The notes beneath the pieces are model-generated. The model searched no databases. It saw only the letters and a program-made list of their open reading frames with translations, and had not been told where the DNA came from. Positions 39,655-40,710 of a DNA stretch of 64,000 bases are shown piece after piece (position 1 is the stretch's first letter; the number at the start of each line of letters is the position of its first letter). The position numbers and the translations under genes were made by a program. The DNA lies in assembly GCA_030390025.1 (NCBI GenBank), contig CM059431.1, positions 159,652,001 through 159,716,000 on the forward strand, in the 5' to 3' direction. This stretch comes from Squalus acanthias (Eukaryota).

Positions 39655-40710
39655 ATGTGGAGATGCCGGTGTTGGACTGGGGTGGACAAATCTGAGAAGT
39701 CGCACAACACCAGGTTATAGTCCAACAGCTTGATTTGAAATCACAAGCTTCTGGTGAGCAGCAGCAGCAGAGTGGTGGTCTCTGTGGCCAGGAAGAGGAG
39801 AAGGAGACCAGATAGCAGGCCACCACCAACAACCAACAACAACCACAACTGAGGTGCCTGGAGAGAGAGGACAGGAGAGGAGAAAGAAAAGAAGGCCAAG
39901 GCCATTAACAACAGAGGAGAGGCCTTTCCACACTGCCTCCTCAATTGGCCTCCATTTTAGGAGAGGGAGAGAGGGGAGAAAACTTCACAAACAAACATCA
40001 TCTGTTTGGAAGGAGGAAGGAAGGAAAGAACATCATCTACAGGTGGGTGTGATTCTGGGGCACTCTCCCAGAGACTTTGTTTTGTAGGTGGGGGGAGGAA
40101 AGAAGATAAGAAGAGGGCCGGAACATCCAAGGGGTGTGTGTGTGTGGCTTTTGTAAAAGCTAGGCCGCACACACCATATTAAACACCCCTTTCCCATTGC
40201 CTGACCTGGGACAGCTGGAGCTGCCTAGGTGAAGTTCCCCAATTAATTATATCCAATTGGGCATCGTTAAGACCTGGTGCAGGACTGAGCCTGGGCATCT
40301 CCAGCTATCCCAGGTGAAGACATCTTCTCCCCCCACCAGAAGACCACCACCAAAGACTTTTTACATCGGAGAGTGCACCCCCCTGCCAACACCCACCCAC
40401 CCACCATCCTGAGTGGCGACCCTGCCCTTGCGGCTTCCCTCCTTCCCACCCCCCTCTCTCTCTCTCTTTGTCTCTTGTCTCTCTCTGCCTCTCTCTCTCT
40501 AAGAATCACCTCAATCTATTTTTAATTAAGTACCCATTGAGCAGAGGGGAGAAGGCCCCTCTCCCAATTCAATCAACTAAAGGGAGAGGTGTGCCTTCAA
40601 TTTAAGAGCTCCCTCTGCTCAGGGGAAACCAGAAATAAAAAAAACCAAGGCCATTAACACCTTCAGGCCTGTGACTTGGGGTGAGTGTAGCCCTTAAAGA
40701 ACCCTCCATT

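What the first reader, a model, noticed from the sequence alone, without database searches (positions are those of the whole stretch)
39705..39760. Tx1 5' leader mimics the downstream target, regenerating the site and allowing tandem arrays
Seen: after the 24-bp TSD both Tx1 copies begin with CTTGATTTGAAATCACAAGCTT. The host at the same position reads TTTTATTTGAAATCACAAGCTT (54032-54053), and the host's opposite arm (AAATAAAACTG, ~54119-54129) confirms TTTTA as the host's own state. The 22-nt leader with two diagnostic differences therefore travelled with the Tx1. Inference: after insertion the left junction reconstitutes ~46 bp of contiguous target, so later copies can insert immediately upstream and build head-to-tail arrays. 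The leader may also anneal to the target during 5' joining. The mimicry ends exactly at the AAGCTT palindrome of the antisense ribozyme motif.
Basis: partly seen in the sequence, partly recalled or inferred. Interest (0 to 1): 0.7.

Follow-up and report, generated by a model that had tools for sequence, protein, structure and literature searches.

The report
Jumping gene's inherited scrap of target
Two head-to-tail copies of a Tx1-type jumping gene begin with a 22-base near-copy of the DNA just past their landing site, likely a junction leftover handed down from an ancestral copy, as already described for the earwig R2 element, and likely not what lets the copies stack.

Summary
Both Tx1 units follow 24 bp of target and start with a 22-nt near-copy of the next target bases (two changes); the host carries TTTTA on both arms. 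A contig from another study keeps CTTGA at an independent tandem junction, so the head most likely travels with the element and is not a mutated 46-bp duplication.

(1) Arrays do not need the head: R1 and SINEU-3 stack on the duplication alone, and one contig shows a Tx1 3' end joined through 14 target bases to a head-less, truncated Tx1. (2) The two window copies come from one source. (3) CTTGA is not diagnostic: a host repeat at 8008 has it. The two changes together complete one hairpin (top 2 of 2079 double changes), so they are probably one event. (4) The 24/22 split is only the first mismatch; the true duplication may be shorter. (5) The 22 nt lie past the inferred top-strand cut and cannot be the part that anneals.

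Earwig R2 has the same arrangement: a 22-bp downstream duplication with three changes, propagated. New member of a known kind.

The parts
39705..39728 (+). 24 bp of target before copy 1; upper limit of the target-site duplication (the true duplication may be shorter, with the rest belonging to the inherited head)
   Evidence: about 14-base joint
39729..39750 (+). 22-nt target-derived head of Tx1 copy 1, two changes from the host; with the two bases before it forms a predicted 6-bp hairpin
39751..46854 (+). Tx1 copy 1 body: 5' UTR, ORF1 from 40711 (zinc knuckle; split over two frames at a run of G near 42024), ORF2 42891-46790 (APE endonuclease + RT), short A/T-rich 3' UTR without AATAAA/ATTAAA
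46855..46878 (+). 24 bp of target between the two copies
46879..46900 (+). 22-nt head of Tx1 copy 2, identical to that of copy 1
46901..54007 (+). Tx1 copy 2 body, identical to copy 1 except one homopolymer base and 5 changes in the last 50 bp
54008..54053 (+). right-hand target: 24 bp plus the host's own 22 bp (TTTTA form)
54044..54080 (-). minimal hammerhead-like motif of the host repeat, palindromic helix III at 54048-54053; predicted cut between 54048 and 54047; read from motif only, no Rfam hit
   Evidence: against the features in PMC4209133; negative
39655..54164 (.). host: fold-back (inverted-arm) Penelope-like terminal-repeat insertion, itself inside an older LINE with a 13-bp duplication at 39642-39654 and 54165-54177
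7984..8029 (+). diverged host repeat without Tx1 that carries the same CTTGA 22-mer (control against 'diagnostic')

Best explanation
The 22 nt are likely a junction leftover that an ancestral copy of this Tx1 family acquired once and that is likely passed on because the element's RNA would start at or upstream of it, inside the target. Steps: (1, inferred) a founder insertion ended up with target bases 25-46 at its 5' end, through a far top-strand cut or a template jump. (2, inferred) The two changes came as one fold-back (quasi-palindrome) event, in the founder or in the host subtype it captured. (3, inferred from R1/R2) Later RNAs include some target bases before the head; their cDNA pairs with the cut top strand at or before base 24, which gives clean junctions and copies the head through as a passenger. 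(4, shown for 3 of 3 full-length junctions seen) The head keeps the element's letters, not the local host's. (5, shown once, and known for R1) Arrays form on the plain duplication with or without the head.
For: Host has TTTTA on both arms while both left junctions have CTTGA. X10 contig 46596-47289 has 8 substitutions, all 8 listed, none at 46879 or 46882, and differs from the window's junction in tail and UTR. Head-less tandem joint in X1, 46848 to 46514, about 14 target bases, depth 42. Earwig R2: all 5' junctions carry a 22-bp downstream duplication with three substitutions, explained as a propagated aberrant junction (PMC3774820 passages). R1 arrays on a 14-bp duplication (PMC2718515). Tx1L endonuclease site drawn with seven flanking bases a side (PMC1950540). 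Hairpin rank 2 of 2079. Weak leftover similarity past base 46 fits a decaying extension. Other Tx1 families carry snRNA-derived heads (PMC4494074; U4 head in 6 loci).
Against: Only 3 full-length junctions were seen, two from one source; the family-wide letters at 46879 and 46882 are not among the 40 of 262 rows shown. A host repeat with CTTGA exists (8008), so a CTTGA host at the X10 junction is not excluded. No RNA evidence, and no ribozyme that would set the RNA start as in R2. Bases 29-46 still match the host consensus at 18 of 18 while bases past 46 have largely diverged; this step could mean constraint. The head-less joint is one contig seen only as 24 printed letters. The hairpin test was made after the hairpin was noticed.
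Confidence: 0.68

Rival explanations
1. One reading: the head is kept by selection because it rebuilds 46 bp of target at the left junction, so that new copies can insert in front of old ones.
For: Bases 29-46 match the host consensus at 18 of 18. The tandem junction is the assembled path in X10 at depth 14 against 22-34 for the body, a hint that arrays are common. A second-strand cut near base 24 would have flanking target on both sides only with the head (inference).
Against: Head-less tandem joint. R1 and SINEU-3 arrays need only the duplication. The two mismatches sit at +1 and +4 of the boundary, where mimicry should matter most. The element is young (long X10 and X15 ORF2 contigs differ from the window by 2 of 1163 and 5 of 2390 letters), so a good match needs no selection.
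Confidence: 0.12
2. The head is made or refreshed at each insertion: reverse transcriptase jumps onto the target at the AAGCTT palindrome and the cDNA end folds back, which writes CTTG and supplies a 2-base match to the cut top strand. The hairpin is then part of 5' joining.
For: Both changes are the letters a fold-back onto the CAAGCT arm would write: DNA fold -5.2 against -0.5 kcal/mol, rank 2 of 2079 and 14 of 2079 by stem length. About half of the depth in X1 (17683 of 34514) and X7 (330 of 690) has G at 46901, which extends the palindrome by three bases.
Against: Recurrent events should give ragged junctions, yet 3 of 3 are identical over the 46 bp. One ancestral event explains the same letters. 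With RNA energies and the longer context the rank falls to 38-41 of 2079. Post hoc test.
Confidence: 0.1
3. No head at all: a 46-bp target-site duplication, with CTTGA from later mutation, gene conversion or a CTTGA host subtype, copied to the second unit by tandem duplication.
For: The two units come from one source (identical bodies; at 42664, 44065 and 44873 all four runs show only the other letter). A CTTGA host repeat exists. The two changes may be a single event.
Against: The host's second arm has TTTTA. The independent X10 junction has the same letters. The head-less joint has about 14 target bases, not 46. The two units have different 3' tails, which simple unequal crossover would not give.
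Confidence: 0.08

Closest known systems
R2 of the earwig Forficula auricularia (Eickbush et al. 2013, PMC3774820; passages read)
   Same: [quoted passage not shown]
   Different: R2 has a restriction-like endonuclease, targets 28S rDNA and sets its RNA start with an HDV-like ribozyme. Here: APE-type Tx1, a Penelope-like repeat as target, a duplication before the head, and no ribozyme found.
Drosophila R1: tandem arrays and melanogaster-type ISR junctions (Stage and Eickbush 2009, PMC2718515; passages and section 12 read)
   Same: APE-type site-specific LINE; head-to-tail arrays separated by the duplication; ISR junctions read duplication, then 16-27 target-derived bases, then element.
   Different: R1 arrays form on a bare 14-bp duplication. 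The ISR piece comes from upstream of the site and its junctions vary; here it continues downstream, in register.
Tx1L of Xenopus laevis and crocodilian Tx1-Mar/SINEU (Kojima 2015, PMC4494074; passages and sections 16, 17 read)
   Same: [quoted passage not shown]
   Different: The target is a hammerhead-bearing Penelope-like repeat, not a piggyBac or Mariner element; the head is collinear with the duplication.
Minimal hammerheads in Penelope-like terminal repeats (Cervera and De la Pena 2014, PMC4209133; passages read)
   Same: Host motif has the core, the extra base before helix II, G10.1-C11.1 and a palindromic helix III.
   Different: It lies antisense to the Tx1, so it cannot process the Tx1 RNA; no Penelope ORF was seen among the window ORFs scanned.

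Membership tests
Tx1 clade non-LTR retrotransposon | ORF2 with APE-type endonuclease and RT | tested here: met
   PF03372 at residues 13-234, PF00078 at 519-768
Tx1 clade non-LTR retrotransposon | ORF1 with zinc knuckle | tested here: met
   PF00098, E 1.3e-4, score above cut-off; ORF1 is split over two frames in both window copies
Tx1 clade non-LTR retrotransposon | Closest named full-length relative is a Tx1 element | tested here: met
   Xenopus Tx1 149 kDa protein, 50% identity, 99% cover
Tx1 clade non-LTR retrotransposon | Placement in an RT tree with Tx1L/Keno/Tx1-Mar | not tested
   no tree built
Tx1 clade non-LTR retrotransposon | Sequence-specific insertion | tested here: inconclusive
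   Both 3' ends in the window, the X10 junction and the X1 joint meet the same target base; no genome-wide count, as no genome is held
Propagated downstream-target 5' extension (earwig R2 type) | Copy of downstream target at the 5' junction | tested here: met
   20 of 22 letters, in register
Propagated downstream-target 5' extension (earwig R2 type) | Substitutions shared between copies and absent from the local target | tested here: met
   3 of 3 full-length junctions seen; host arms TTTTA; two of the three share one source
Propagated downstream-target 5' extension (earwig R2 type) | Uniform across all full-length copies | tested here: inconclusive
   rows for 46879 and 46882 are not among the 40 of 262 shown
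Propagated downstream-target 5' extension (earwig R2 type) | RNA 5' end lies in the target upstream of the extension | not testable with these tools
   all holders listed were contigs, which cannot show a start
R2 HDV-like ribozyme-defined 5' end | HDV-like ribozyme at the element's 5' end | tested here: not met
   no ribozyme among 6 Rfam matches at E up to 1 in 30000-64000; 0 hits for two recalled L3 loop motifs in 39650-40750
Penelope-like element terminal repeat (host) | Minimal hammerhead core with palindromic helix III | tested here: met
   read by eye against features in PMC4209133; no Rfam model matched
Penelope-like element terminal repeat (host) | Inverted, 5'-truncated repeat arrangement with a one-sided tail | tested here: met
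   fold-back arms at 33473-33654 and 54008-54150; arrangement described in PMC8557442
Penelope-like element terminal repeat (host) | RT plus GIY-YIG ORF | tested here: inconclusive
   none among the 12 of 49 window ORFs scanned; these insertions are short fragments
Penelope-like element terminal repeat (host) | Self-cleavage | not testable with these tools
   needs an in vitro assay

The most novel reading that the evidence does not exclude
The head is a working part: a hairpin-forming copy of the target whose fold-back at the AAGCTT palindrome sets second-strand priming and leaves a complete cut site for the next copy. An APE-type LINE would then program its own 5' joining and stacking with a captured piece of another retroelement's ribozyme arm.
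Probability: 0.12. Interest if true: 0.6.

Novelty: new member of a known kind. Interest (0 to 1): 0.28.

Why it matters
How non-LTR elements join their 5' end is still open. A head with two marker letters right at the end of the duplication is a built-in tag: counted over many copies, it would show where the top strand is cut and which strand supplies each base of the junction in an APE-type element. The arrangement is known from earwig R2, so the value is a second, vertebrate, Tx1-clade example and a test case, not a new principle.

Tried and rejected
No whole genome is held, so junctions could not be counted genome-wide. Pattern scans for the junction or target found 0 matches in metagenome, viral and prokaryote contigs. 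4 of 23 runs were laid, all contigs; loose ends (24 of 1200 shown) did not list truncated 5' junctions, which was the planned test. An HDV-like or sense-strand hammerhead ribozyme in the Tx1 5' region was not found. A pairing of target bases 4-9 with the first 6 Tx1-specific bases (z -2.7) looks like an R2 P1 stem but has no core behind it and loses a pair in the common G variant; not pursued. A link between the head's end and the ribozyme cut was rejected: opposite strand, 6 nt apart. Among 80 invertebrate Tx1-like loci, a repeat search found no duplication-plus-downstream-head case; 12 loci gave repeats; the best, L056/L069, is an intact U5 gene about 290 bp upstream of the element. The Xenopus Tx1L endonuclease paper (PMC85248) is not held, so its duplication length was not checked. 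No paper on a Tx1 in a Penelope repeat or on a downstream-derived Tx1 head turned up in the listings of six searches; the library lacks most subscription journals, and Repbase was not searched. Supplements of PMC4494074 (junction figures S3-S6) were not read and may hold similar junctions.

Full report
Anatomy. The window holds a three-level nest. An older LINE contains a short fold-back repeat at 39655-54164 with a 13-bp duplication. That repeat has, on the minus strand, a minimal hammerhead-like core with a palindromic helix III (54044-54080). It fits the features given for Penelope-like terminal repeats in PMC4209133 (passages) and the inverted arrangement in PMC8557442 (passages). Rfam gave no ribozyme hit, so the ribozyme label rests on motif reading. 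Inside one arm sit two head-to-tail LINEs of 7126 and 7129 bp. ORF2 has APE endonuclease and RT domains and is 50% identical to Xenopus Tx1 ORF2 over 1299 aligned residues. Partial hits of 74% and 69% to horn shark and stingray proteins suggest a cartilaginous fish (inference).

Observation. It is correct. The same 24 bp stand at 39705, 46855 and 54008. The first two are followed by the CTTGA 22-mer, the third by the host's TTTTA form, which the host's second arm also has. There are nine matches in the window and none in 100 shuffles.

How strong is 'it travelled with the Tx1'? The window alone is weak evidence. The two units are identical over about 7.1 kb except one homopolymer base and 5 changes in the last 50 bp. 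They share letters that none of four laid runs shows (42664, 44065, 44873). They are one source seen twice. Their different 3' tails argue against simple unequal crossover but do not give the order of insertion. CTTGA is also not unique to Tx1: of 8 complete host arms, 5 read TTTTA, 1 CTTGA (8008), 1 CTTTA and 1 ATTTA. The independent evidence comes (4 of 23 runs laid, all contigs). A 706-bp contig of X10 (other study and organism label) spans 46596-47289. It has 8 substitutions, and 8 are listed for it (46808, 46825, 46838, 46901, 46937, 46963, 47134, 47257). Its 14 gap letters work out as 13 inserted and 1 deleted; I take the deleted one to be the tail base also missing in copy 2 (inference). 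So both marker letters are kept at a junction that differs from the window's in tail and UTR. The links from tail to G28 (29 nt) and from C25 to the UTR (23 nt) are shorter than a 31-letter word, so they should reflect real molecules. The family-wide frequency was not seen: those two positions are not among the 40 of 262 rows shown. In all, 3 of 3 full-length junctions keep CTTGA.

Is the head needed for arrays? Probably not. Table 5c (12 of 18 rows shown) has a joint in X1 from 46848 back to 46514, depth 42. The 24 letters between are the rest of the Tx1 tail and 14 target bases (13 matching). That is a Tx1 3' end, a short piece of target, and a Tx1 truncated to its last 340 bp, with no head. 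It is one contig. It agrees with print: Drosophila R1 arrays arise by insertion into a bare 14-bp duplication (PMC2718515), and tandem SINEU-3 copies sandwich a duplication (PMC4494074). The Tx1L endonuclease site was drawn with seven flanking bases a side and was still nicked, less well, when one side was replaced (PMC1950540). Insertion in front of copy 2 and insertion behind copy 1 give the same final sequence, so the window cannot show 'later copies insert upstream'.

Where is the boundary? The 24/22 split marks only the first mismatch. If the RNA carries some of the 24 bp, the real duplication is shorter and the head longer; the 14-base joint points that way. By TPRT geometry (inference), the host top strand must end at or before base 24, or the left junction would show the host's T at 25 and 28. 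So the part that can anneal to the cDNA is upstream of the 22-mer, and the 22-mer is copied through.

The two changes. Together they turn a weak inverted repeat into a 6-bp stem, AGCTTG with CAAGCT: -5.2 against -0.5 kcal/mol as DNA. Among all 2079 double changes of the host 22-mer, 2 fold as well or better in the short DNA context, 4 and 11 in the longer DNA contexts, 5, 38 and 41 with RNA energies, and 14 give a perfect stem of 6 bp or more. [quoted passage not shown] The test was post hoc, but it suggests one event rather than two. It also offers a way for the host copy at 8008 to have gained the same letters; a captured host subtype or an excision scar would explain that copy too.

The end at AAGCTT. 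The drop is sharp but not total: 7 of 12 and 8 of 15 further letters match the host (p about 0.03, five lengths tried). The first base after it is C or G in about equal depth in X1 and X7. The predicted ribozyme cut is on the other strand and 6 nt inside the head, so the ribozyme does not define this end.

What is known. An earlier AI note (e1-7940689) pointed to earwig R2, and I checked the paper. All earwig 5' junctions carry a 22-bp duplication of 28S from downstream of the target with three substitutions. The authors explain it as an aberrant junction that entered the RNA and was propagated, because upstream target bases anneal and prime the second strand; such extensions are unconstrained and decay (PMC3774820, passages). 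That is the present arrangement almost to the letter. Target- or snRNA-derived heads recur in the Tx1 clade (PMC4494074, sections 16 and 17). I also found one: in an invertebrate family, 6 of the 80 fetched loci carry 13-37 nt matching the start of U4 before the element core, with different flanks. What differs from R2 is that no ribozyme sets the RNA start here, so how the RNA comes to begin in the target is open. An internal promoter that starts upstream, or read-through from the previous unit, are the candidates; the 3' UTR has no AATAAA or ATTAAA. Six searches did not show a Tx1 case in print, within a library that lacks most subscription journals.

Verdict. The feature is real and most likely inherited. 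It works like the propagated earwig R2 junction (confidence 0.68). Selected site regeneration gets 0.12, per-insertion fold-back 0.10, a plain 46-bp duplication 0.08. Earlier notes on this genome report the same target-specific family and, in one case, a 54-nt inherited target copy; these are unchecked and are not counted as support. New member of a known kind; interest 0.28.

Noticed in passing
window 33440-33656 and 39655-54164; empty site near 37640-37660: Two Penelope-like fold-back insertions sit at the same base of two LINE copies that are only 78-81% alike, while the inserted arms are 93% alike; a third LINE copy is empty there. This suggests independent insertions at a preferred site.
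   Followed up: partly
L056:1429-1458, L059:2606-2642, L060, L062:234-270, L063, L065, L069: An invertebrate Tx1-like family from metagenome contigs carries a head matching U4 snRNA bases 1-37; its 3' ends are followed by U4 (L060, L062), U5 (L056, L069) or other DNA. It may target two snRNA genes. Contigs may be collapsed.
   Followed up: partly
window 42024-42033 and the same place in copy 2: Both copies have a run of G one base longer than the contigs of X10, X15 and X7, and ORF1 is split over two frames; a shared defect or a homopolymer error.
   Followed up: partly
window 42195-42802: A patch of about 20 differences from the X10 and X15 contigs lies in an element otherwise about 99.8% alike in ORF2; X1 shows both letters at several of them. 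The window's copies look like a mosaic of subfamilies.
   Followed up: no
window 46808-46843 against 53957-53995: All substitutions between the two units cluster in the last 50 bp of the 3' UTR; other runs show further tail types.
   Followed up: partly
window 10-4077 and 4486-28025: A 39-bp satellite (about 105 copies) is followed by long arrays of a related-looking 48-bp satellite, into which several hammerhead-bearing repeats have inserted.
   Followed up: no
window 29234-30190: An ORF with a rhodopsin-family seven-transmembrane receptor match (E 1.8e-14) lies between the satellite and the LINE cluster.
   Followed up: no
L075:100-130 and 5814-5955: A Tx1-like element with U2 snRNA at its 3' flank and a U2-like start at its 5' flank (5' side read by eye), as described for Keno.
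   Followed up: no
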